In this document: piece after piece, positions 723 to 10,627 of the stretch
How the letters are laid out: each line of letters opens with the position of its first letter
Numbering within the stretch: position 1 is the first letter of the stretch
Origin: a virus
Lineage: Duplodnaviria > Heunggongvirae > Uroviricota > Caudoviricetes
DNA: 64,000 bases
Virus record (IMG/VR): IMGVR_UViG_2609459792_000007
Direction: 5' to 3' (one strand)
Notes under the pieces: generated by a model
Database searches by the model: none
The model's input: the letters and a program-made list of their open reading frames with translations, nothing else
Told to the model about the DNA's origin: nothing
Translations under genes and position numbers: made by a program

Positions 723-3700
723 TTGGACATGGAACAGTTCAAGAAGAAAAAATTACCGCTTCTTATTGCCGGTGCTGGTGGCAAGAAAAGTAAAAGCTCC
801 AGCCGTACCCCGGTTGAAGCTGATGATACTGTCAATTCTCGTGCTATGGCAGCCATCCTCGACCTTCTTGGCGAGGGGGTTATCGGTGGCCTGGTAAATG
901 GCGCAAAGTCGATCTTCATCGACGATTTACCGATCTTGAATGAAGATGGCTCTTCCAACTTCAGCGGTATTACATGGGATTTTCGTGACGGCTCACAAGA
1001 CCAGACGCCAATGGCTGGTTTTGATTTTGTTGAAACGCCTAAGTCCGTAAATATTCAGCTTAAAAAAACACACGACGTTACGGTTTCAATCGATAACGAT
1101 GAAGCTGATCGCGTTCGTGTCATCATGAAATTCCCCTCTTTACGTAGCGTTGATAAAAGCTCTGGCGATACAAATGGCACTACGGTGAAGTACAAATTCC
1201 AGATCGCCAACGGAGACGCAACATTTTCTGATGTAGTGGCAGAAGGTGAGAAAAGCGTTGATATCACGCTAACGGCAAAGAAAACAGGCGTGTATTACCG
1301 TAGCTATGAGCTGAAACTACCTAAGCCTGGTCGTGCATACAAGGTTAGGGTGATTCGTCTTACAGATGATAACAGTAGCCAGTACCTCTACAACGACACA
1401 TGGGTTGATTCCATAGGTGAGATTGTCGACACGCCAATGAACTACCCTAACTCTGCTCTTGTTGGCTTGAAGGTCAATTCAGAGCAGTTTGGTAGCACAA
1501 TGCCTTCCCGTTCGTATTTGGTGCGCGGTATCAAAATCCGAGTACCGTCAAACTACAACGAATACACCAATACTTATGTCGGCGTATGGGACGGTACTTT
1601 TAAGCTGTTGTCTTCTTCAAACCCTGCGTGGATTCTCTACGATTTGCTTACCAATACTCGGTATGGTCTTGGGCAATTTGTGTCGGAATCCATGATTGAC
1701 CTCGGCCAGCTCTACCAGATTGGTCGATATTGTGACGAAGAGGTCGATGATGGCTTTGGGGGTAAAGAGAAACGCTTTGCAATCAATACGCAGATCACCA
1801 GTCGACAAGACGCATACCGATTAATTCAGGATATTGCCGGTGCATTCCGCGGCATGGTGTTTTGGGCTGGTGGCATGGTTAACATCATGCAGGATAGCCC
1901 ATCAGATCCGGTAATGATGTTTACCAACTCCAACGTCAAAGATGGACTGTTTACCTATAAAGGTTCTGCGCGTAAAGATCGCCCATCCGTTGCGCTCGTA
2001 ACCTACAACAACAAGGAGGACGGTTATAAGCAAAATATCGAGTACGTTGAAGATCAGGACGCAATGCGCCGTTATGGTGAGCGTAAAACAGAAGTCGTAG
2101 CATTTGGATGTACAAGCCGAGGCCAGGCTCACCGAGTTGGTTTGTGGCTTTTGTATACCGCCAGAATGGAGTCGGATGTAATTACATTTACTGCCGGCTT
2201 AGACGCCTCATTTCTGATGCCCGGTGAAACCGTTCTGATTCAGAACAAATATCGTGCAGGTAAACGTAACTCCGGTCGAATTGTGGAGTTTACCAAAAAC
2301 AGCATCACTCTCGATGCGCCTGTGTCGTTAGCTAAAAGCGGCAGCTTTATTCGGATATTGAATCAGGAAGGCAAAATCGTTGAACGTGATGTTCTTGAAA
2401 CTGGCGAAAACATAACAAAGGTTACGTTTTCAAAAGCTCTGTCGTCAGCGGAAACGCCTGTTTTGAACGGTGTCTGGACAATTACAGAACCAGATCTCGA
2501 ACCTATGCGCGTTCGCATCGTTAACATCGCGCAGGGGGAAACGCCGGGTAGCTTTGACATCACCGCTGTTGAGAACAATCCGTCTAAATATGAGGCAATC
2601 GACAATGGTGCAACGCTTATCCCGCAGAATACGACGGTATTGGACCCGACTTACTCTAAGCCATCTAATTTGCAAATCACTGAAGGGACTTATCTCTCAA
2701 GCCCGGGCAACCTGTCAGTAAAACTGACTGCAACATGGGAAGGAAAATCTCCAGAGTATTGGATCAGTTGGCGACGTTCTGATGAAAACAATGTATCGAA
2801 CTGGCAATCGGCGCGTGTAACCGAAGAGCAATACGAAATCGTTAATGTCGCGGAGAATGGACGCTACGACTTCCAACTGTATGCGGTTTCATTCAACGGT
2901 AAAAAAACAGAGATTATCAGTACCGTTTATCAGGTGTTGGGCACAATGACACCGCCGGATGCCCCAACGTCATTAACGGCCGTTGGAGACTATCGTAATG
3001 TGATACTGAATTGGGTTAATCCAGATTCGGTAGACCTTGATCACATTAATGTTTACGCATCCCAGACCAACAATCTGGATACGGCGAAACTGATCGCAGA
3101 GTCTGCAAGCACCACCTTTACACATGCTGGTCTTGGGGATAGCGAAACGTGGTATTACTGGGTTCGAGCATCGAACAAGCGAGGTATGTTAAGCCCTCCG
3201 AACTCAAACTTGGGTACAGAGGCGACAACTCGCGATGTACTGTCGTTCCTGGCTGGCAAAATTACATCTTCCGAGCTTGGTCAGGCTCTGCTTGAGGACA
3301 TCAACAGTAAAGCCTCTCAAGAAGCAGTTGACGAGTTAAATGAGCATATCAACCAGAGCGTCGAATCTTTGGAGGGGTCGGTAAACGACGTTAAGGAAGA
3401 TATAGCTGAATTAGATAAGCAGTTCAGCGATAACCTCGCGGGTTTTGAAATAAAATTCAACGAGCGTAGCGATGCTTTGGAGAACGCACAAACCGAGCTT
3501 AAAGGTGAGGTTTCGGCAACGATCGACAAGGTCAATGAAGCGTTTGAAAAAATTGATGCTACTGATGCTGCAATTGTTGAAATCGAAAACACCGTATCTG
3601 AACACGATAAAGCTCTCGCTAATACAGTCGAGGCAATAAAGGCTGCAAGAGACGAAGCGGCGGCTCTTATTGCTAAGGAAAGCGAGGCTCGTGTAGAAGG

Positions 3701-5453
3701 TGATGCCGCAAACGCTAAACAACTGGAAGTGTTGCAGTCGACGGTAGAGGAAAGTTCCGCAGCTGTTGAAGAAATGAAAAAGACGGTTGCAGAGGTCGAT
3801 CGTGCCAGTGCAGAACTGACTACGAACATTGAGGCGTTAGCCAAAACAAATATTGACCTGGCTCTTCGTCAAGATGAAGACCAGCACAAGCAGATGGTCA
3901 ATAACGCGAAGATCGCAACAACACAGAAAACCTTTGCTGATGATATGTCTGCAATGGCCACGAAGGTTGAGGAAATTCGCGTAGAAATTGGCGAAGACAT
4001 TAAGGCCAGTATTCTGGAAGAGTCCACCGCTCGTGCCGATGGCGATGAAGCGTTGGCAAAGCGTGTCACTCAGCTGCAATCTAAGTTTGAAGGAGATATC
4101 AGCGCGGCGATTAGTACAGAACAGGAGGCTCGTACATCTGCCGATGAAGCTTTGACGAAACAAATAACTCAGCTTGAGTCGAAAGTAAGCAACGATATTG
4201 TCGCAGCCATTAAGGAAGAGCAAGAAGCCCGAGCAACGGAAGATTCGGCTCTGGCAAGCCAGATCACCCAACTTCAGGCAAAAGTTGATGATGATATTTC
4301 TGCTGCAATACGCAGTGAGCAGGAGGCGCGTGCGAGCGGAGACTCTGCGTTAGCTAAACAAATAAACCAGCTTCAAGCAAAGGTTGACGGTGATATATCC
4401 GCCGCCATCACTCAGGAGCAGGAGGCCAGAGCAAGTGCTGACGAGGCGCTCTCACGAGAAATTAACAGCCTGCGGGCGCAGACCGGAACTGACATTGCCG
4501 CAGCCGTTGCTGTAGAGACAAAGGCAAGGACTGACGCCGATAGTGCATTGTCCAGCCAGATTACATCTCTTACAGCAAAAGCTAATGATCTCGAGGCGTC
4601 TCTTGCCAAAGAAACAACGGCTCGTGCAGATGGCGATACCGCTTTAACAAAAGAGGTTTCAAGTTTAAAAGCACAGACTGCGAAAGATATTAGTGCGGCC
4701 GTTGCAGTGGAAACGCAGGCTCGAACTGATGCTGACTCGGCGCTATCGTCTCAGATCACCAAGCTGACCTCTCAATACAAAGAGGATATTAAAGCGGCTG
4801 TAGCAACCGAAACGAAAACGCGTACAGAGCAAGATGCGGCACTGGCGACTCAAATCACAAACTTAGAGTCTCAAACAGCAGCCAACATTTCTGCGGCGGT
4901 CACAACTGAAACGACAGCGAGAACGCAGGCAGATAATGCACTAAGTGGGCGAATCGATACTCTGAAAGCAGAGGTGGATGGAAATACCGCGACAATTCAA
5001 CAGCAGGCAACAGCCATTGCTGATACCAACAAAAAAGTCTCAACCGCGTGGACGTTGAAAATGGAGACTTCAACGAGCGGAGGGCAGAAGTATGTTGCCG
5101 GTATTGCGCTTGGTATCGACACCACCGGTCTTTCTCAGTTTTTGGTGCAGGCGGACAGATTTGGTTTGGTCAACTCTGTTAACGGGAAGATCACCACGCC
5201 ATTTGTTATCGAAAACAGTATCGCCTATATGAATGGTGCGTATATCAAGGATGGCACAATCACCAATGCAAAAGTAGGCGATCTGCAATCTACCAATTTT
5301 GTTAGCGGTAGATCTGGATGGCGGTTCGGCAAAAATGGAACGCTTGAGATCAACGGTAATAGCGGCGGCAATGGGCGACTGGTCATAAATGGTCAGCGGA
5401 TTGACGTTTATGACGATAACAACGTCCTACGAGTAAGAATTGGCCTTCTGTGA
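723..5453 (+). CDS. host specificity protein J-like central tail fibre
   Basis: 1576 aa; N-terminal third carries lambda gpJ-like motifs (NPAWILYDLLTNTRYGLG, FRGMVFWAGGMV); central Ala/Glu-rich tandem repeat stalk; follows I-like gene. Confidence 0.85.
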   Translation: MDMEQFKKKKLPLLIAGAGGKKSKSSSRTPVEADDTVNSRAMAAILDLLGEGVIGGLVNGAKSIFIDDLPILNEDGSSNFSGITWDFRDGSQDQTPMAGFDFVETPKSVNIQLKKTHDVTVSIDNDEADRVRVIMKFPSLRSVDKSSGDTNGTTVKYKFQIANGDATFSDVVAEGEKSVDITLTAKKTGVYYRSYELKLPKPGRAYKVRVIRLTDDNSSQYLYNDTWVDSIGEIVDTPMNYPNSALVGLKVNSEQFGSTMPSRSYLVRGIKIRVPSNYNEYTNTYVGVWDGTFKLLSSSNPAWILYDLLTNTRYGLGQFVSESMIDLGQLYQIGRYCDEEVDDGFGGKEKRFAINTQITSRQDAYRLIQDIAGAFRGMVFWAGGMVNIMQDSPSDPVMMFTNSNVKDGLFTYKGSARKDRPSVALVTYNNKEDGYKQNIEYVEDQDAMRRYGERKTEVVAFGCTSRGQAHRVGLWLLYTARMESDVITFTAGLDASFLMPGETVLIQNKYRAGKRNSGRIVEFTKNSITLDAPVSLAKSGSFIRILNQEGKIVERDVLETGENITKVTFSKALSSAETPVLNGVWTITEPDLEPMRVRIVNIAQGETPGSFDITAVENNPSKYEAIDNGATLIPQNTTVLDPTYSKPSNLQITEGTYLSSPGNLSVKLTATWEGKSPEYWISWRRSDENNVSNWQSARVTEEQYEIVNVAENGRYDFQLYAVSFNGKKTEIISTVYQVLGTMTPPDAPTSLTAVGDYRNVILNWVNPDSVDLDHINVYASQTNNLDTAKLIAESASTTFTHAGLGDSETWYYWVRASNKRGMLSPPNSNLGTEATTRDVLSFLAGKITSSELGQALLEDINSKASQEAVDELNEHINQSVESLEGSVNDVKEDIAELDKQFSDNLAGFEIKFNERSDALENAQTELKGEVSATIDKVNEAFEKIDATDAAIVEIENTVSEHDKALANTVEAIKAARDEAAALIAKESEARVEGDAANAKQLEVLQSTVEESSAAVEEMKKTVAEVDRASAELTTNIEALAKTNIDLALRQDEDQHKQMVNNAKIATTQKTFADDMSAMATKVEEIRVEIGEDIKASILEESTARADGDEALAKRVTQLQSKFEGDISAAISTEQEARTSADEALTKQITQLESKVSNDIVAAIKEEQEARATEDSALASQITQLQAKVDDDISAAIRSEQEARASGDSALAKQINQLQAKVDGDISAAITQEQEARASADEALSREINSLRAQTGTDIAAAVAVETKARTDADSALSSQITSLTAKANDLEASLAKETTARADGDTALTKEVSSLKAQTAKDISAAVAVETQARTDADSALSSQITKLTSQYKEDIKAAVATETKTRTEQDAALATQITNLESQTAANISAAVTTETTARTQADNALSGRIDTLKAEVDGNTATIQQQATAIADTNKKVSTAWTLKMETSTSGGQKYVAGIALGIDTTGLSQFLVQADRFGLVNSVNGKITTPFVIENSIAYMNGAYIKDGTITNAKVGDLQSTNFVSGRSGWRFGKNGTLEINGNSGGNGRLVINGQRIDVYDDNNVLRVRIGLL
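4000..4990 (+). repeat. tandem coding repeats of about 93 bp (about 31 aa) inside the J-like gene
   Basis: About 12-14 consecutive units of the form DISAAI..EQEAR..AD.AL..QIT.L.AKV in the translation; predicted coiled coil. Boundaries approximate. Confidence 0.7.
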
Positions 5454-5546
5454 TGGTAGAAAAAAATATTTATATCGGTAAAAATAAGTAGGTACTTACT
5501 TAATGGTGGGCAAGGATAGCCCACCAAATCAAGGAGCATATTCAAC

Positions 5547-8500
5547 ATGTGGTACAGGGAAGGTACTATCACATTTACACAGGGTAGTAATACTCTGGTT
5601 GGGGTTGGGACAGCCTGGAACGTAACAGCTAATGGTGTGTTGCCGGGGATGATCGTCATTGGCCCCGACAATAAGCTGTATGAGATCAAGCGCGTAACAA
5701 GCGATACGAACATTGTTCTCTCAGAACCTTATACCGGTGAAACTCAGTCTGAAGTTCCGTGCCGAATCATTACTACCTATGAAGGCGACTTAACACAGTT
5801 TAGCGCGCGCTTTACCGCGCTAATGTCGCGTATGTCGGCTGATTCCAAGTCCATGCGTAGTTGGTTGACTGCTCTGGATGAGGTGACAATCGAGCGTGAA
5901 GACGGTACAGAAGTGACCGTTAAGCCGCTGATGCAGATCGTCAACGAGCACAACGAAAACGTTGAGTGGTATAAAAATAACACTGACGCGATTGATGCCG
6001 CTGGTGACAAAGCTCGTGAGGCGGCGGCCAGTGCTGCCGCAGCAGCAGAAAGCGCCAATACCGCTGGAGAAAAAGCATCTCAAGCGTCTCAAAGTGCATC
6101 CGCTGCGGCATCCTCACAAAGTGCCGCAAGTGCGAGTGCAACTGCTGCGAAAAAATCTGAAACGAACGCAGAATCAGCATATCTATCGGCAGCAGAATCA
6201 GCGTCTGTAGCGTCGACCAAAGCATCGGAGGCAGCAACATCTGCGTCCAGTGCCTCTGCATCTAAGGATGCAGCCAAAGCATCAGAGACTAACGCTTCAT
6301 CGAGTGCAAACGCGGCTGCATCATTTGCAACAGAAGCTGAAAATTCGTCTAAGGCAGCAAAAGCGTCAGAGACAAACGCAAAAGCATCTGAAACGGCAGC
6401 CGGGCAGAGTGCATCGTCTGCAAACAGTTCGAAATCTGCGGCAGAAGCGTCAGCAAGCGCAGCCTCAGCAAGTGCGGATAGTGCTTCATCAAGTGCAACT
6501 GCGGCAGGAAAATCTGCGGAAAGCGCGTCGTCATCAGCGACAACAGCTACCGCAAAAGCGACTGAGGCGACGAATCAGGCTACAGCTGCTAAAAATTCAG
6601 CATCGGCAGCAAAATCCTCTGAAACAAATGCAAAGGCTTCTGAAGATAATGCCGCTTCCTCTAAAGAGGCAGCTGCTGAATCTGCAAGTTCTGCGTCTGC
6701 ATCAGCCACCTCGGCATCTGCTTCAAAAGATGAGGCGACCAAGCAGGCATCAGCTGCGAAGGGGAGTGCTTCAACGGCATCCACGAAAGCAACAGAGGCG
6801 GCAGGTAGTGCGACGGCTGCATCTCAGAGCAAAGCTGCTGCTGAATCCGCTGCGACCCGTGCAGAAGCTGCCGCTGATCGTGCTGAAGAGATCGCCGGTG
6901 CAGTTGCGATGGAAGACGCAAGCCTTACCACCAAAGGTGTTGTGAAACTTAGCAGTGCTGTCGATAGCACCAGTGAATCGCTGGCCGCAACGCCAAAGGC
7001 AGTTAAAGCAGTCAATGACAATGCGAACAGCAGGGTGCCATCTAACCGAAAAATTAACGGGAAAGCACTGACTGCGGATATCACATTAACGCCGAAAGAT
7101 ATTGGTACTTTAAATTCAATAACGATGTCTTTCTCTGGCGGGGCCGGGTGGTTCAAACTGGCTACTGTTACAATGCCACAAGCGAGTTCCATCGTTTACA
7201 TCGCATTGATTGGTGGCGCTGGTTACAACGTCGGCTCCCCACATCAGGCAGGCATTTCAGAACTGGTTCTACGAGCAGGCAATGGAAACCCCAAAGGGAT
7301 TACAGGTGCTTTGTGGAAGCGTACAGCTGTCGGATTAACGAATTTCGCCTGGATCAACACATCCGGCGATACATATGATATTTACGTTGAAATTGGCAAT
7401 TATGCGACGAGTGTAAATATCCATTGGGATTGTACTGCAAATGCGTCAGTTTCTATTTATACATCGCCAACATATTCAGCGAGTAAGCCTTCCAGCGTTA
7501 CCGATGGTGTTGTTTATACGTTGTATAGCACACATCAGAAACCGACGCCGTTAGATATTGGAGCACTGCCAACAACCGGAGGAACAGTTTCAGGTCCGTT
7601 GTCTGTTACTGGTGGGATCACCGGAACATTAAATGGTAATGCAAGTACAGCAACGAAATTGCAGACGGCAAGATCTATCGGTGGAGTTGTTTTCGACGGT
7701 TCTGCAAATATTAACCTTCCAGGTGTAAACACTACGGGTAATCAGAACACCACTGGTAATGCTGCAACTGCTACAAAACTTCAGACGGCACGCACAATTG
7801 GCGGGGTAGCATTTGATGGCAGTGTCAATATCGACCTGCCGGGCGTGAATAAAGCAGGCAATCAGAGCACTACCGGCAATGCTGCAACCGCTACAAAACT
7901 ACAGACAGCGCGTACAATCAACGGTGTTAAGTTTGATGGTTCTGCGGACATAACGCTGACTCCTGCGAACCTTGACGTATACAGCAAAAGCGAAATAGAC
8001 AATAAAAAAGGGATGAGAAAATACACTTTTTCAGCGCCTGCAAATGCAGTAAGCGGTAAGTGGTATCCTATAGTCTTTCGCCGATCTGGAGGCAGTACCG
8101 ATGAATTAGCCTCACGAGTTGTGATAACTACTTATTCCTCAGCTGGCGGATACGCCATGAATAATTGTGAATTTAATGGGTTTGTTATGCCTGGCGGTTG
8201 GTCTGATCGCGGTTCATATGCGGCTGGTTTTTTCTCAATATATTCTACTGCTGAGCGAGCTATACACTCGATTATTTCAAGTGTGAAAGATGACGATTTG
8301 TGTAGTGTATTTTACGTTGAAGCCAGAGCATTCCCTATCAAGATATTTGCTGAGGAGGGCTTGAACGTAATTGTTCCAACGGCTGATTATGCAGTTGGTC
8401 AAACCACTTATAAGTGGGGGGCAACTGATCCTTTATCAGAAAGTACGAATGCACAGATAATTTTGGACTTTAAAAATGGACGAGGTTATTACTGTTCACA

Positions 8501-9704
8501 TCCATTTATTTCAAGTCTTTCAGGAAATGCTGCTACAGCAACGAAATTGCAGACTGCAAGAACTATCGGCGGCGTGGCCTTCGATGGATCTGCGAACATA
8601 AATTTGCCTGGTGTAAACACGGCAGGTAATCAGAATACAACGGGCAACGCGGCTACTGCTACGAAGTTGCAAACAGCGAGAAACATCAATGGTGTTAAGT
8701 TTGATGGCTCAGGCGATATCAACATTAATACATTGGTATCTCGTGGCCGAGTTACGGCGTTAAGCGGCTCTACTCAAGGCACTGCTGGCATTCAAATGTA
8801 CGAGGCGTACAACAATAGTTATCCGACCACGTATGGCAACGTATTGCACATGAAAGGTGCGAGTGCTGCTGGTGAGGGCGAGTTGCTTATTGGCTGGAGT
8901 GGTACGAGCGGTGCACATGCGCCGGTTTTCATTCGCTCCCGAAGAGATACCACTGATGCGGCATGGTCAGCGTGGGCGCAGGTATATACCGCTAAGGATT
9001 CAATCCCTGGTGTGAATACAACCGGTAATCAGAACACTACTGGTAATGCCGCAACCGCCACAAAATTGCAGACAGCAAGGAAAATTGCTGGTGTGGCGTT
9101 TGATGGCTCTGCCGATATTACTTTGACTGCGGCTAACCTTAATGCTTACACGAAAACAGAGGTAACAAACCTTCTAAGTTCCTATGCAAGCAGATCATCA
9201 CTGACAGGCTATAGTGGCAACCTGGATATTATTGCTGAAACACTGGTTGTCAAATCAGGCGGTAGTGGAGGGTTTGCTATATGGGATATTGGCACAACTA
9301 CTAGCGGTGCCAATATGTACATTGATCCAAACCCAGGTATCAATACAGTTTGGCGTTCAACATCTTCAAGGCGCTATAAAAAGGATATTGAAACATTACA
9401 AGATCGATATGCTGATGAACTTTTGTCATTAAGACCTGTTTGGTATCGTTCAATTTGTCGAGGTGACCGAAAGGATTGGGGGTATTACGGCCTTATTGCT
9501 GAAGAGGTTGGTGAGATTGCCCCGCAATATGTCCATTGGCGTGAACCAACAAATAATGATTCTCCAGAAGATATTTCCTCCAATGGTATGGTCGCTGAAG
9601 GAGTGATGTATGAACGTTTGGTTGTACCACTCATTCATCATATTCAGCAATTGACCAAAAGGGTTGAGGAGCTTGAAAAGAAGTTAAATTCACCTAAAGA
9701 ATAA
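5547..9704 (+). CDS. side tail fibre protein (Stf-like N-terminus, repeat shaft, C-terminal intramolecular chaperone-like domain)
   Basis: 1385 aa; Ala/Ser-rich region ending ..GSASTASTKATEAAGSA..SQSKAAAESAA..KGVVKLSSAVDSTSESLAATPKAVKAV resembles lambda Stf N-terminus as recalled; five or more copies of NAATATKLQTAR..GV.FDGS..I.LPGVNT.GNQNTTG; C-terminal about 130 aa resemble the self-cleaving chaperone domains of tailspikes and L-shaped fibres. Confidence 0.8.
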   Translation: MWYREGTITFTQGSNTLVGVGTAWNVTANGVLPGMIVIGPDNKLYEIKRVTSDTNIVLSEPYTGETQSEVPCRIITTYEGDLTQFSARFTALMSRMSADSKSMRSWLTALDEVTIEREDGTEVTVKPLMQIVNEHNENVEWYKNNTDAIDAAGDKAREAAASAAAAAESANTAGEKASQASQSASAAASSQSAASASATAAKKSETNAESAYLSAAESASVASTKASEAATSASSASASKDAAKASETNASSSANAAASFATEAENSSKAAKASETNAKASETAAGQSASSANSSKSAAEASASAASASADSASSSATAAGKSAESASSSATTATAKATEATNQATAAKNSASAAKSSETNAKASEDNAASSKEAAAESASSASASATSASASKDEATKQASAAKGSASTASTKATEAAGSATAASQSKAAAESAATRAEAAADRAEEIAGAVAMEDASLTTKGVVKLSSAVDSTSESLAATPKAVKAVNDNANSRVPSNRKINGKALTADITLTPKDIGTLNSITMSFSGGAGWFKLATVTMPQASSIVYIALIGGAGYNVGSPHQAGISELVLRAGNGNPKGITGALWKRTAVGLTNFAWINTSGDTYDIYVEIGNYATSVNIHWDCTANASVSIYTSPTYSASKPSSVTDGVVYTLYSTHQKPTPLDIGALPTTGGTVSGPLSVTGGITGTLNGNASTATKLQTARSIGGVVFDGSANINLPGVNTTGNQNTTGNAATATKLQTARTIGGVAFDGSVNIDLPGVNKAGNQSTTGNAATATKLQTARTINGVKFDGSADITLTPANLDVYSKSEIDNKKGMRKYTFSAPANAVSGKWYPIVFRRSGGSTDELASRVVITTYSSAGGYAMNNCEFNGFVMPGGWSDRGSYAAGFFSIYSTAERAIHSIISSVKDDDLCSVFYVEARAFPIKIFAEEGLNVIVPTADYAVGQTTYKWGATDPLSESTNAQIILDFKNGRGYYCSHPFISSLSGNAATATKLQTARTIGGVAFDGSANINLPGVNTAGNQNTTGNAATATKLQTARNINGVKFDGSGDININTLVSRGRVTALSGSTQGTAGIQMYEAYNNSYPTTYGNVLHMKGASAAGEGELLIGWSGTSGAHAPVFIRSRRDTTDAAWSAWAQVYTAKDSIPGVNTTGNQNTTGNAATATKLQTARKIAGVAFDGSADITLTAANLNAYTKTEVTNLLSSYASRSSLTGYSGNLDIIAETLVVKSGGSGGFAIWDIGTTTSGANMYIDPNPGINTVWRSTSSRRYKKDIETLQDRYADELLSLRPVWYRSICRGDRKDWGYYGLIAEEVGEIAPQYVHWREPTNNDSPEDISSNGMVAEGVMYERLVVPLIHHIQQLTKRVEELEKKLNSPKE

Positions 9705-9764: not shown

Positions 9765-10019
9765 ATGAGCTATGGTGCACAGGTTTGGTCGCCATCAAGA
9801 CAGGAGATGGTCGATGCGTTGGCCCCTGTTTATTACCTCGATTATTTTACTCCCTCTGGTTCTGGAAGTAGAACATATGAGGTTGAGGCGGGATTGGGAA
9901 TCGACTATTACATAATGGACGTAACCAATGGGAAATACACAAGTCTTACGGTTTCTGGAAATACCATTTCATGGTCTGGAGCTAGTGGCAATTTAAACAT
10001 ATTGGTTTTTCAAAAATAA
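9765..10019 (+). CDS. hypothetical protein
   Basis: 84-aa ORF after the tail fibre gene; AT-rich; no motif recognised. Confidence 0.45.
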   Translation: MSYGAQVWSPSRQEMVDALAPVYYLDYFTPSGSGSRTYEVEAGLGIDYYIMDVTNGKYTSLTVSGNTISWSGASGNLNILVFQK

Positions 10020-10627
10020 TGTACGGAAGCAAGATATATCGATCTGACGGGAAGGTCTGGATGTCTCCTTCTTTGTCTCCTATCGTTTTTCAGAGAAAGC
10101 AGGTTGTTTCTTTGTCTGGCGGGACAGAGTTTAACACCCAAATATCTCCAGATCGTTCACCGATGATTTTTGTTGCCTATTCGAAAGCTGTTTCATTAAT
10201 AGCCAACAGAATAGTGCGTAACAACCAGGTGATTTACAGTTTCGGAGGTCAGGGTAGCGACTCTAGTGCCACGATATACGTATTTTCGAAAGGTATAGCC
10301 AAAAAAGAAACTTGGGGCATGAGTTTTTTCAATGCGCGAGGAGAGGAGATCTATAATACGGCAAATATCCCACTTTCATTTACCTTTCTTAATAATACGG
10401 AGTGGAACAGTTCTGGAGGGCATGTTTTTGATTACCCGCCAGCGATAATCCCAACATATGCAAATGTGTTCGCGGTTCCAGTACCGGGCGGGGCCATGAC
10501 AATGGTTTATGGATATGCGGCATATGGAAATACTGTTAGTTCCATATTCGTAAACCAACTTAATGGCGGCCATAGTTTTAGCGTAAATGGCAGAGTACCG
10601 GTAATAAATAGAAATCTGTATAACTGA
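10019..10627 (+). CDS. hypothetical protein
   Basis: 202-aa ORF, start overlaps previous stop; no motif recognised. Confidence 0.5.
   Translation: MYGSKIYRSDGKVWMSPSLSPIVFQRKQVVSLSGGTEFNTQISPDRSPMIFVAYSKAVSLIANRIVRNNQVIYSFGGQGSDSSATIYVFSKGIAKKETWGMSFFNARGEEIYNTANIPLSFTFLNNTEWNSSGGHVFDYPPAIIPTYANVFAVPVPGGAMTMVYGYAAYGNTVSSIFVNQLNGGHSFSVNGRVPVINRNLYN

What the first reader, a model, noticed from the sequence alone, without database searches (positions are those of the whole stretch)
4000..4990. Tandem 31-aa coiled-coil repeat stalk inserted in the J-like central fibre
The J-like protein carries about 12-14 near-tandem copies of a 31-aa unit absent from lambda J as I recall it; the repeats are visible at DNA level as about 93-bp units. 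Such arrays can expand or contract by recombination and would change fibre length.
Basis: seen in the sequence. Interest (0 to 1): 0.45.

Follow-up and report, generated by a model that had tools for sequence, protein, structure and literature searches.

The report
Ten-unit coiled-coil shaft in tail fibre
The central tail-fibre protein of this E. coli phage-plasmid carries ten tandem 33-residue helical units forming a roughly 50 nm shaft that phage lambda lacks; the unit number differs between relatives, and the shaft probably belongs to the recently described class of fibre shafts that refold to open the tail.

Summary
It is 10 units of 33 aa / 99 nt (nt 3996-4982), not 12-14 units of 31 aa / 93 nt. 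The DNA periodicity is weak and only reflects protein conservation.

The window is an SSU5-like E. coli phage-plasmid. The gene is its J/TipJ central fibre (729-5453, identical to WP_032203356.1). Compared with lambda J it has a 560-aa proline-free helical insert between the FNIII domains and the tail-tip domain. The array makes up 329 aa of that insert. AlphaFold2 predicts one continuous helix.

Copy number varies among relatives: 1, 4, 5, 6, 9, 10, 11, and about 21 in one metagenomic J. At least four independent in-register one-unit gains or losses exist in near-identical E. coli alleles. They are rare, and the three DNA junctions examined lie in microhomologies of 3-12 nt.

The last unit and the C-terminus are homologous to F-type pyocin central fibres. 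There the shaft is a trimeric coiled coil that switches to a beta-prism. All ten units match the published fold-switch motif in both orientations.

Verdict: a new member of a known kind, of moderate interest.

The parts
729..5453 (+). J / TipJ central tail-fibre (tip attachment) gene, 1574 aa from ATG (MEQFKK...). The mechanical ORF starts at TTG 723.
   Evidence: ORF. Pfam and PHROG (phrog_31, central tail fiber J). The exact protein is WP_032203356.1, in a cluster of 1290 members.
729..3302 (+). N-terminal hub and FNIII part (aa 1-858), collinear with lambda J aa 3-835. Pfam domains: FNIII-A_GpJ 1029-1433, Phage-tail_3 1797-2288, fn3 2958-3197.
   Evidence: Pfam. BLASTP against lambda J: 32% identity over 873 columns, E = 8e-119. 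PDB sequence hits 8iyk_J, 25vf_A and 9l9p_S.
3303..3995 (+). Upstream non-periodic helical segment of the insert (aa 859-1089). It has no proline and a heptad-like hydrophobic period of 3.55.
   Evidence: Composition and Fourier analysis. AF2 covers aa 1041-1089 as helix. The rest is inferred from sequence.
3663..3749 (+). Degenerate, isolated copy of the unit (ALIAKESEARVEGDAANAKQLEVLQSTVE).
   Evidence: Unit HMM, 14.8 bits.
3996..4982 (+). The array: ten tandem units of 33 aa / 99 nt (aa 1090-1418). Consensus DISAAIxxExxARAxADxALxxQITxLxAKxxx.
   Evidence: Invariant positions are A4, E9, R13, D17, A19, L20 and L27.
3996..4094 (+). Unit 1 (DIKASILEESTARADGDEALAKRVTQLQSKFEG). It has orthologues as the first unit in relatives.
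4095..4193 (+). Unit 2.
   Evidence: A 2N+3C hybrid in P0008 marks a one-unit deletion.
4194..4292 (+). Unit 3.
   Evidence: The junction with the end of unit 4 (CAAAGGTTGA) is used in the 9-unit variants.
4293..4391 (+). Unit 4. It is lost, or recombined with unit 5, in the variants.
4392..4490 (+). Unit 5.
4491..4589 (+). Unit 6.
4590..4685 (+). Unit 7. It is the only 32-aa unit and the most divergent one (30-45% identity to the others).
   Evidence: The same short unit is present in relatives.
4686..4784 (+). Unit 8.
4785..4883 (+). Unit 9.
4884..4982 (+). Unit 10. It has orthologues as the last unit in every relative, and it is the unit most clearly shared with the F2 pyocin fibre.
   Evidence: 28.9 bits on the F2 pyocin fragment.
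4983..5450 (+). C-terminal beta-rich domain (156 aa), always directly after the last unit. Pfam Phage_Tail_Tip (formerly DUF1983) lies at 4992-5396. It lacks the lambda LamB-binding end.
   Evidence: Pfam. The 156-aa tail is constant across relatives. The AF2 beta strands begin 5-6 residues after the helix ends. Foldseek hits to lambda gpJ fibre 8xcj/8xci and to SU10 7z4b.

Best explanation
The array is the main part of an alpha-helical, presumably trimeric coiled-coil shaft of the phage-plasmid's central tail fibre. It lies between the FNIII domains that close the tail tip and the distal beta-rich tip domain. Each 33-residue unit is three hendecads and adds about 5 nm, so ten units give about 49 nm and the whole 560-aa insert about 84 nm. 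The most likely mode of action is the one shown for the homologous F-type pyocin fibre. The shaft would be a metastable spring that refolds from coiled coil to a compact beta-prism when the distal end engages the cell surface. That change pulls the tip to the membrane and opens it. In this reading each unit supplies one beta-hairpin, so unit number sets both reach and stroke. Unit number evolves by rare in-register loss or gain of whole units and by exchange of the whole C-terminal half of J. Shown here: the repeat, the insertion relative to lambda J, the helix prediction, the homology, the motif match and the copy-number variation. Inferred: the trimer, the dimensions and the fold switch.
For: The period is 33 aa / 99 nt with 10 units. 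The 560-aa insert sits exactly between blocks collinear with lambda J, and the unit is absent from lambda J. AF2 gives a continuous helix over aa 1041-1405 (pLDDT about 70-80). In a shorter run the helix covers aa 1321-1406 with pLDDT 90-97 over most of its length, followed at once by beta strands. The insert has no proline, and the hydrophobic period is 3.65, with power 5.8 against a shuffled 95th percentile of 1.05 and no power at 3.50. phmmer of aa 1058-1574 hits the F2 pyocin fibre 25vf_A over its residues 926-1193 (E = 1e-25) and T1 gp33 9l9p_S (E = 1e-30). F-pyocin shafts are solved three-stranded coiled coils (PMC13455828; bioRxiv 10.64898/2026.02.24.707460). The F7 shaft of 163 aa converts to a beta-prism, and the published motif is SxSxxMxxLxS, with Asp/Glu at M paired with Arg at +/-4 (PMC12874032). 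All ten units satisfy the reversed motif at positions 4-14 (50 of 50 positions) and the forward motif at 19-29 (50 of 50). E9, R13 and D17 are invariant. Motif density is 7.9 per 100 aa in the array, 1.05 in the N-terminal part and 0.64 in the C-terminal domain. The array has 26 hits, against a mean of 5.7 and a maximum of 14 in 2000 shuffles. Copy number is 10 here and in phage Cyrano, 9 in PhiR41_1, 5 in SSU5, 6 in Cronobacter and Y. pestis, 4 in S. Typhi, 1 in a 1229-aa E. coli class and 11 in pCUPF07B. One metagenomic J of 2138 aa has about 21 units. Hybrid units mark four distinct one-unit events.
Against: No trimer or beta-prism state could be modelled. Both AF2 runs were monomers and returned only helix. 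Clear unit-level similarity to the F2 pyocin is limited to the last unit and the C-terminal domain; its upstream units score weakly. The array is twice as long as any shaft studied experimentally. The period here is hendecad-like, whereas the PA0641 shaft was described as a heptad register with one stutter. The fold-switch paper is a preprint, and it notes that lambda and T5 do not use this mechanism. No virion image or adsorption data for this phage-plasmid were examined.
Confidence: 0.55

Rival explanations
1. A passive spacer. The coiled coil is a static stalk that holds the distal tip domain at a set distance so that it can reach through O-antigen or capsule. Unit number tunes reach only, and there is no refolding.
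For: Both AF2 runs give only a confident helix. Copy number differs between host genera. The periodicity is that of a regular, well-packed hendecad coil.
Against: It does not explain why every unit keeps small residues exactly at the six published prism-corner positions (73% Ala, 13% Ser, 13% Thr), which are solvent-exposed in a coiled coil (PMC12874032). A fibre fixed at about 84 nm would hold the tail tube far from the membrane unless it bends or collapses.
Confidence: 0.3
2. A docking rail for side fibres. As in F-type pyocins, the shaft mainly serves as the attachment platform for the large side fibre encoded next door (5547-9704). The repeats would provide equivalent binding sites.
For: In F2 and F7 pyocins three side-fibre trimers attach to the helical shaft (PMC13455828, PMC12874032, bioRxiv 10.64898/2026.02.24.707460). 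A 1385-aa fibre gene with a Peptidase_S74 chaperone domain follows J.
Against: In the pyocins attachment is at one kinked or inserted site, not along a repeat. Relatives with one to five units keep side-fibre genes. No similarity between this side fibre's N-terminus and the pyocin attachment domains was tested. This reading is compatible with the best explanation rather than exclusive of it.
Confidence: 0.1
3. A contingency locus. The array is a fast-switching tandem repeat whose length changes at high frequency by slipped-strand mispairing or RecA recombination, producing mixed fibre lengths within a population.
For: One-unit gains and losses do exist among near-identical alleles.
Against: Units share only 51% DNA identity and the longest in-register exact run is 11 nt. 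Synonymous sites are fully randomised, and TRF finds no array. Variants make up about 4-6% of 165 plasmids, and 14 of 15 listed members of the 1290-member cluster are 1574-1575 aa. The first and last units are orthologous across genera.
Confidence: 0.03

Closest known systems
Central fibre protein of F-type pyocins (F2 PyoF10 / PDB 25vf; F7 CFP; PA0641) with its alpha-helical shaft
   Same: The architecture is the same: J-like hub, FNIII domains, long helical shaft, then a beta-rich Phage_Tail_Tip-type end. Sequence homology covers the last unit and the C-terminal domain. The SxSxxMxxLxS pattern and the Glu/Asp-Arg i+/-4 pairs are shared (PMC12874032). Neither has the lambda LamB-binding domain.
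   Different: Here the shaft contains a strict tandem array of ten 33-aa units (329 aa), against a 163-aa switching region with less regular units. The period is hendecad-like rather than a heptad register. The element is an infectious phage-plasmid of Enterobacteriaceae, not a tailocin. No experimental structure exists, and no small adhesin gene like PA0642 was looked for.
Phage lambda gpJ (tip attachment protein J; PDB 8iyk, 8xcj)
   Same: The N-terminal 858 aa are collinear (32% identity), the tail-tip domain is shared, and the gene neighbourhood is the same.
   Different: Lambda has about 5 residues where this protein has the 560-aa helical insert. It has no unit and ends in a LamB-binding domain that is absent here. 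The NCBIfam lambda_TipJ score is 530, against a cut-off of 1950.
Phage T1 central fibre gp33 (PDB 9l9p)
   Same: It is a J-like protein with tandem 33-aa units, including two identical copies (DIQASLTDIREVIATETEALSREIDQLKAQIGD), followed by the same type of C-terminal domain.
   Different: It has fewer units. Its residues 821-1172 were not resolved and were only predicted to protrude about 37 nm (PMC11945409). T1 is a lytic phage that uses FhuA.
J proteins of other SSU5-like phage-plasmids (SSU5, pHCM2, pMT1, Cronobacter plasmids, Cyrano, PhiR41_1)
   Same: They are the same gene at the same position, with the same unit family and an orthologous first unit, last unit and 156-aa end.
   Different: Unit number is 1, 4, 5, 6, 9, 10 or 11. 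Klebsiella members carry a J of more than 2043 aa with a different C-terminal half and no array.

Membership tests
Lambda-type tip attachment protein J (TipJ / central tail fibre) | N-terminal hub domains (FNIII-A_GpJ, Phage-tail_3) and FNIII domains, collinear with lambda J | tested here: met
   Pfam E = 1e-29 and 7.5e-34. BLASTP against lambda J E = 8e-119 over aa 20-858.
Lambda-type tip attachment protein J (TipJ / central tail fibre) | Phage_Tail_Tip (DUF1983) central straight fibre domain | tested here: met
   PF09327 E = 1.2e-41 over the full profile. Foldseek hits to 8xcj and 8xci.
Lambda-type tip attachment protein J (TipJ / central tail fibre) | Position after the tail-tip genes M, L, K and I | tested here: met
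   The I-like gene at 121-711 matches phrog_32. Annotated relatives Cyrano, PhiR41_1 and SSU5 show M-L-K-I-J.
Lambda-type tip attachment protein J (TipJ / central tail fibre) | Equivalence to lambda J itself, including the C-terminal LamB-binding domain | tested here: not met
   NCBIfam lambda_TipJ scores 530 bits against a cut-off of 1950. No alignment extends beyond lambda residue 931.
F-pyocin-type fold-switching central-fibre shaft | Long alpha-helical segment between the FNIII domains and the distal beta domain | tested here: met
   AF2 predicts helix over aa 1041-1405 and 1321-1406. There are no prolines in aa 859-1418.
F-pyocin-type fold-switching central-fibre shaft | Sequence homology to a solved F-pyocin shaft | tested here: inconclusive
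   The 25vf_A hit (E = 1e-25) spans its residues 926-1193. At unit level only the last unit is strong, at 28.9 bits, and the others score 1.5 bits or less.
F-pyocin-type fold-switching central-fibre shaft | SxSxxMxxLxS motif in alternating orientation, with small residues at the S positions | tested here: met
   All positions match at offsets 4 (reverse) and 19 (forward) in all ten units. The array has 26 motif hits against a mean of 5.7 in shuffles.
F-pyocin-type fold-switching central-fibre shaft | Acidic residue at M paired with Arg four residues away | tested here: met
   E9, R13 and D17 are invariant in all ten units.
F-pyocin-type fold-switching central-fibre shaft | Non-switching beta strands directly after the coil, acting as a seed | tested here: met
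   Both AF2 models place three long strands within about 45 residues after the helix end. This is a prediction only.
F-pyocin-type fold-switching central-fibre shaft | [quoted passage not shown] | not testable with these tools
   Only monomer prediction was available. This needs AF3 or CF-random trimer models, or cryo-EM/ET.
Slippage-prone tandem-repeat (contingency) locus | Near-identical DNA units that allow frequent mispairing | tested here: not met
   Mean DNA identity is 51% and the longest exact run is 11 nt. Codon sharing equals the random expectation. TRF is negative.
Slippage-prone tandem-repeat (contingency) locus | Frequent copy-number differences among close relatives | tested here: not met
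   At least 6 and at most about 10 of 165 E. coli plasmids with this allele differ by one unit. Cluster members are overwhelmingly 1574-1575 aa.

The most novel reading that the evidence does not exclude
The 33-residue unit is the quantum of a fold-switching spring: one unit is about 5 nm of coiled coil, or one beta-hairpin of about 1 nm in the prism. On this reading natural alleles with 1 to about 21 units are a graded series. Unit number would set the stroke and the stored energy of tail-tip opening, tuned to the thickness of the host surface layer. It would be adjusted in evolution by in-register microhomology events that selection filters.
Probability: 0.35. Interest if true: 0.65.

Novelty: new member of a known kind. 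Interest (0 to 1): 0.45.

Why it matters
How non-contractile tails obtain the energy to open and reach the membrane is an old question. [quoted passage not shown] SSU5-like phage-plasmids are common: they occur in 228 of 5426 complete E. coli genomes, and this family includes carriers of resistance genes (PMC9600943). Their J protein carries the clearest modular version of that shaft seen here. It comes with naturally occurring 1-, 4-, 5-, 6-, 9-, 10- and 11-unit alleles, some of them on otherwise almost identical backbones. That is a ready-made series for testing whether shaft length sets reach, stroke or host range. It would also guide engineering of fibre length in phages and tailocins. The protein itself is already in databases and the shaft type is already described, so this extends known biology and is not a new kind of system.

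Tried and rejected
- Tandem Repeats Finder at minimum score 30 found no array. This was kept as evidence that the DNA repeat is degenerate.
- A 93-nt / 31-aa period was tested and rejected.
- Recent duplication or concerted evolution was rejected by the codon-sharing test.
- I tried to obtain a beta-state prediction with two AF2 runs: a long segment, and a short segment next to the beta seed. Both gave helix. They were monomers, so the result is uninformative for the prism.
- Pfam, NCBIfam and PHROGs have no dedicated model for the unit. Pfam has no model over TTG-numbered aa 830-1423.
- The supplementary tables of the fold-switch preprint listing the 24 phages are not held. I therefore could not check whether an SSU5-like phage was among them. 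'SSU5' and 'repeat' do not occur in its main text.
- The F7 sequence itself was not available. Only fragments of F2, T1, DEV and gp24 chains recovered from printed alignments were scored.
- The antisense ORFs inside J (3837-4271 and 3317-3844, minus strand) have no PHROG hits and were dismissed.
- A Klebsiella SSU5-like relative was checked for the array and lacks it.
- An exact count of length variants among all 165 plasmids was not possible because listings are capped at 60 rows. Only bounds are given.
Full report
**Context.** The window belongs to an SSU5-like phage-plasmid of E. coli. The J gene region (723-5453) matches Escherichia phages CMS-2020a and Cyrano at 94% over its full length. 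In complete E. coli genomes it matches 228 of 5426 genomes, always on plasmids (240 of 240 places), typically about 110 kb. The ORF at 723-5453 (ATG at 729, 1574 aa) follows a tail assembly protein I homologue at 121-711 (phrog_32). A 1385-aa side-fibre gene follows it. Pfam finds FNIII-A_GpJ, Phage-tail_3, fn3 and, at the C-terminus, Phage_Tail_Tip (formerly DUF1983). No Pfam model covers TTG-numbered aa 830-1423. The exact protein is already in NCBI as WP_032203356.1, 'phage tail tip fiber protein', in a 90%-identity cluster of 1290 members.

**The observation.** The repeat is real and lies at the coordinates given, but its parameters were misread.
- Protein self-identity peaks at lag 33 (0.47) and lag 66 (0.38).
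- DNA self-identity in 3990-4990 is 0.517 at lag 99, against a background of 0.293 +/- 0.038. At lag 93 it is 0.303, which is background.
- Laid out in register, there are ten units from nt 3996 to 4982. Nine are 33 aa and unit 7 is 32 aa.
- A unit HMM finds one further degenerate copy upstream, at 14.8 bits.
- A4, E9, R13, D17, A19, L20 and L27 are invariant.

At DNA level the array is old and degenerate.
- TRF reports nothing.
- Mean pairwise unit identity is 51% (maximum 64%), and the longest in-register exact match is 11 nt.
- At positions where two units share the amino acid, they share the codon in 32.7% of cases, against 33.9% expected from codon usage.

So the '99-bp repeat' is only the shadow of protein-level conservation.

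**Insertion relative to lambda J.** BLASTP aligns window aa 20-858 to lambda J 3-835 and aa 1419-1507 to lambda 841-931. Thus 560 residues (aa 859-1418) occupy a position where lambda has about five. The unit HMM finds nothing in lambda J. The C-terminal LamB-binding part of lambda J has no counterpart here. The insert has no proline.

**Structure.** AF2 with a 41-sequence alignment predicts one continuous helix for aa 1041-1405, with pLDDT about 70-80, followed by a beta-rich domain. A second run on aa 1320-1574 gives a helix over aa 1321-1406, with pLDDT 90-97 over most of it. Three long beta strands follow directly. Foldseek relates the beta part to the lambda gpJ central fibre (8xcj, 8xci) and to the SU10 tip fibre.

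Hydrophobic periodicity in the array is 3.65 residues. Its power is 5.8 against a shuffled 95th percentile of 1.05, and there is no power at 3.50. This matches three hendecads per unit. The upstream 231 aa have a heptad-like period of 3.55. At the standard 0.15 nm rise per residue, a unit adds about 5 nm, the array about 49 nm and the insert about 84 nm. These dimensions are inference.

**Relatives and copy number.** The unit HMM gives the following counts.

| Relative | Units |
|---|---|
| This window, phage Cyrano | 10 |
| PhiR41_1 | 9 |
| A 90%-identical E. coli allele (P0001-P0008) | 9 |
| Cronobacter and Yersinia pestis proteins | 6 |
| SSU5 | 5 |
| A Salmonella Typhi protein | 4 |
| A 1229-aa E. 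coli J class | 1 |
| Plasmid pCUPF07B | 11 |

The last unit is always followed by the same 156-aa end in the close relatives. The first and last units are orthologous across genera, so changes are internal. In other lineages neighbouring units are nearly identical, which indicates recent amplification there: P0019/P0027 units 5-7 and Cronobacter units 4-5.

Among complete E. coli plasmids carrying this allele (165 records, about 96-99% identical over the array), the 10-unit form dominates. I found four kinds of one-unit change, each marked by a hybrid unit.

| Event | Carriers | Junction |
|---|---|---|
| Loss of unit 4 | 2013C-4991, PEC178, P0001-P0007 | Within CAAAGGTTGA, shared by the ends of units 3 and 4 |
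| Deletion leaving hybrid 4N+5C | AH02, AH04, CT01 | Only GAC (3 nt) shared |
| Duplication adding hybrid 5N+4C | pCUPF07B | Within the 12-nt GAGCAGGAGGCC |
| Deletion leaving hybrid 2N+3C | P0008 | Seen at protein level only (within DISAAI/KEEQ) |

That is at least 6, and by ranking at most about 10, of 165 records. Of the 15 cluster members listed, 14 are 1574-1575 aa. Expansion and contraction are therefore real but rare. The three DNA junctions examined use microhomology. Only in-register products were seen, which fits selection for an intact periodic structure.

Larger differences probably arise by replacement of the whole C-terminal half. PhiR41_1 and a second CMS-2020a record share only the first 56% of the gene at DNA level. 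A Klebsiella relative has a J of more than 2043 aa with an unrelated distal half and no array.

**How widespread is the unit?** A profile of the ten units, searched against 1.84 billion representative proteins, finds 2061 proteins at E <= 1e-3 and 197 at E <= 1e-30. Up to about 20-30 stretches match per protein. The best hit is a 2138-aa J-like protein with about 21 units spaced 33 aa apart. In the wider family the commonest spacing is 32 aa, followed by 36, 39 and 33. The window's array is therefore neither unique nor the longest.

**Comparison with known systems.** Sequence searches of the PDB with the array and C-terminus hit four chains: the F2 pyocin tail fibre (25vf_A, E = 1e-25, residues 926-1193), phage T1 gp33 (9l9p_S, E = 1e-30), a 'J central straight fiber domain' protein (9ze4) and a J-like gp24 (23gd).

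Three 2026 structural studies show that the F-pyocin central fibre has a long three-stranded alpha-helical shaft after the FNIII domains, and that side fibres dock on it (PMC13455828; PMC12874032; bioRxiv 10.64898/2026.02.24.707460). He et al. (PMC12874032) further show the following.
- Blocking this conversion by Gln at small corner residues abolishes killing without affecting assembly.
- A motif SxSxxMxxLxS recurs in each strand, in the orientation of the strand, often with Asp/Glu at M paired to Arg four residues away.
- 21 of 24 siphophage fibres are predicted to switch.

I tested this motif on the array. The reversed motif fits positions 4-14 and the forward motif fits positions 19-29 in all ten units, 50 of 50 positions each. 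E9, R13 and D17 are invariant. Turn-forming G/D/S/N residues occupy positions 15-18 and 30-3. Motif density is 7.9 per 100 aa in the array, against 1.05 and 0.64 in the N- and C-terminal parts. The array has 26 hits, against a mean of 5.7 and a maximum of 14 in shuffles. The spacing of the residues mutated in F7 (987, 995, 1010, 1017) fits two strands per roughly 33 residues. That last point is my inference from the text.

Unit-level similarity to F2 is strong only for the last unit (28.9 bits). T1 gp33 has clear 33-aa repeats, but that part was not resolved (PMC11945409).

**Conclusion.** The finding is a genuine, correctly located feature with wrong numbers and an essentially correct interpretation. 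It is the coiled-coil shaft of a J-type central fibre, built from ten ancient 33-residue modules. It belongs to the F-pyocin/T1 type of central fibre rather than the lambda type. The most likely mechanism is a metastable coil that refolds into a beta-prism, one hairpin per unit. In that case unit number sets both the reach (about 5 nm per unit) and the contraction stroke: about 49 nm collapsing to about 10 nm for ten units, which is inference. This step is not shown here, and a static spacer remains a serious alternative. The array is not a fast-switching contingency locus.

**Limits.** No multimer modelling was possible. No virion images or host-range data were examined. The count of variants is bounded rather than exact. 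The fold-switch evidence rests on one preprint plus supporting structures.

Noticed in passing
L011 (NZ_CP124394.1 pAVS0968-B) 4083-6586, corresponding to window about 4700: In the closest complete relative (99.5% identical), the J gene is split by an ISEc23 (IS66-family) insertion inside the array, near the unit 7/8 boundary. In pTW10722_119 an IS100 splits J near aa 506 (L012). Some phage-plasmids of this type are therefore probably no longer infectious.
   Followed up: partly
proteins P0070-P0114: Dozens of database J proteins are 'partial' and end between about aa 950 and 1090, just upstream of the array. Some sit on contigs of about 99-109 kb, the size of the whole plasmid. Short-read assemblies seem to break inside J. 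The cause (IS copies, co-resident J alleles) was not determined.
   Followed up: no
window 723-3376 versus 3377-5453; hits H3, H4: The J gene is mosaic. PhiR41_1 and one CMS-2020a record share only the first 56% (89% identity), and Klebsiella relatives share the first 55% (75%). Beyond that the sequences are unalignable at DNA level. The exchange point lies near the FNIII/shaft boundary.
   Followed up: partly
L013 (Klebsiella phage vB_KpnS_p4727) J ORF: The Klebsiella SSU5-like J is longer than 2043 aa. It has helical segments interrupted by globular inserts and several Ser/Thr/Asn/Gln-rich helical stretches, but no 33-aa array. It is a quite different distal fibre on the same hub.
   Followed up: partly
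window 5547-9704 (+): This is a 1385-aa side tail fibre, annotated in Cyrano as a homologue of the phage P1 S protein. It has a C-terminal Peptidase_S74 intramolecular chaperone domain and matches many different PHROG fibre families piecewise, so it looks highly mosaic.
   Followed up: no
window 9765-10019 and 10019-10627 (+): Two small genes after the fibre match an 'outer membrane protein' family (phrog_557) and a membrane-associated moron family (phrog_425). They sit where lambda carries lom and could be lysogenic-conversion or exclusion genes.
   Followed up: no
window 4590-4685: Unit 7 is one residue short and is the most divergent unit (30-45% identity to the others). It is conserved as such in Cyrano, PhiR41_1 and the 9- and 11-unit variants. 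It may be a fixed stutter or landmark in the shaft. The first AF2 model has its only low-confidence dip (aa 1242-1251) in the C-terminal part of unit 5.
   Followed up: partly
P0019 / P0027 units 5-7; P0010 units 4-5: In other lineages two or three neighbouring units are almost identical to each other. This indicates recent local amplification, unlike the fully diverged units of the window.
   Followed up: partly
representative proteins P0136-P0276: The unit family is widespread, with 2061 representative proteins. In other lineages the spacing is mostly 32 aa, and also 36 and 39 aa, differing by about one helical turn. Some proteins carry 20 or more units, and several have no recognisable Pfam domain.
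   Followed up: partly
PDB 9ze4: A 429-aa 'J central straight fiber domain' protein has three weak copies of the unit and the same C-terminal end. Its PDB code is mentioned in a paper on the N4-like podophage DEV of Pseudomonas (PMC12892993). This would place the shaft and tip module outside siphophages. The paper was not read.
   Followed up: no
L007 (NZ_CP024271.1): The J gene of plasmid unnamed2 of strain F8111-1SC3 is annotated as a frameshifted pseudogene and is 3 nt longer than the window gene.
   Followed up: no
window 3972-4001: TRF reports a 12-nt tandem (GAAATTCGCGAA x 2.5) immediately before unit 1, encoding EIRVEIGED. It is probably a trivial local duplication at the array's start.
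   Followed up: no
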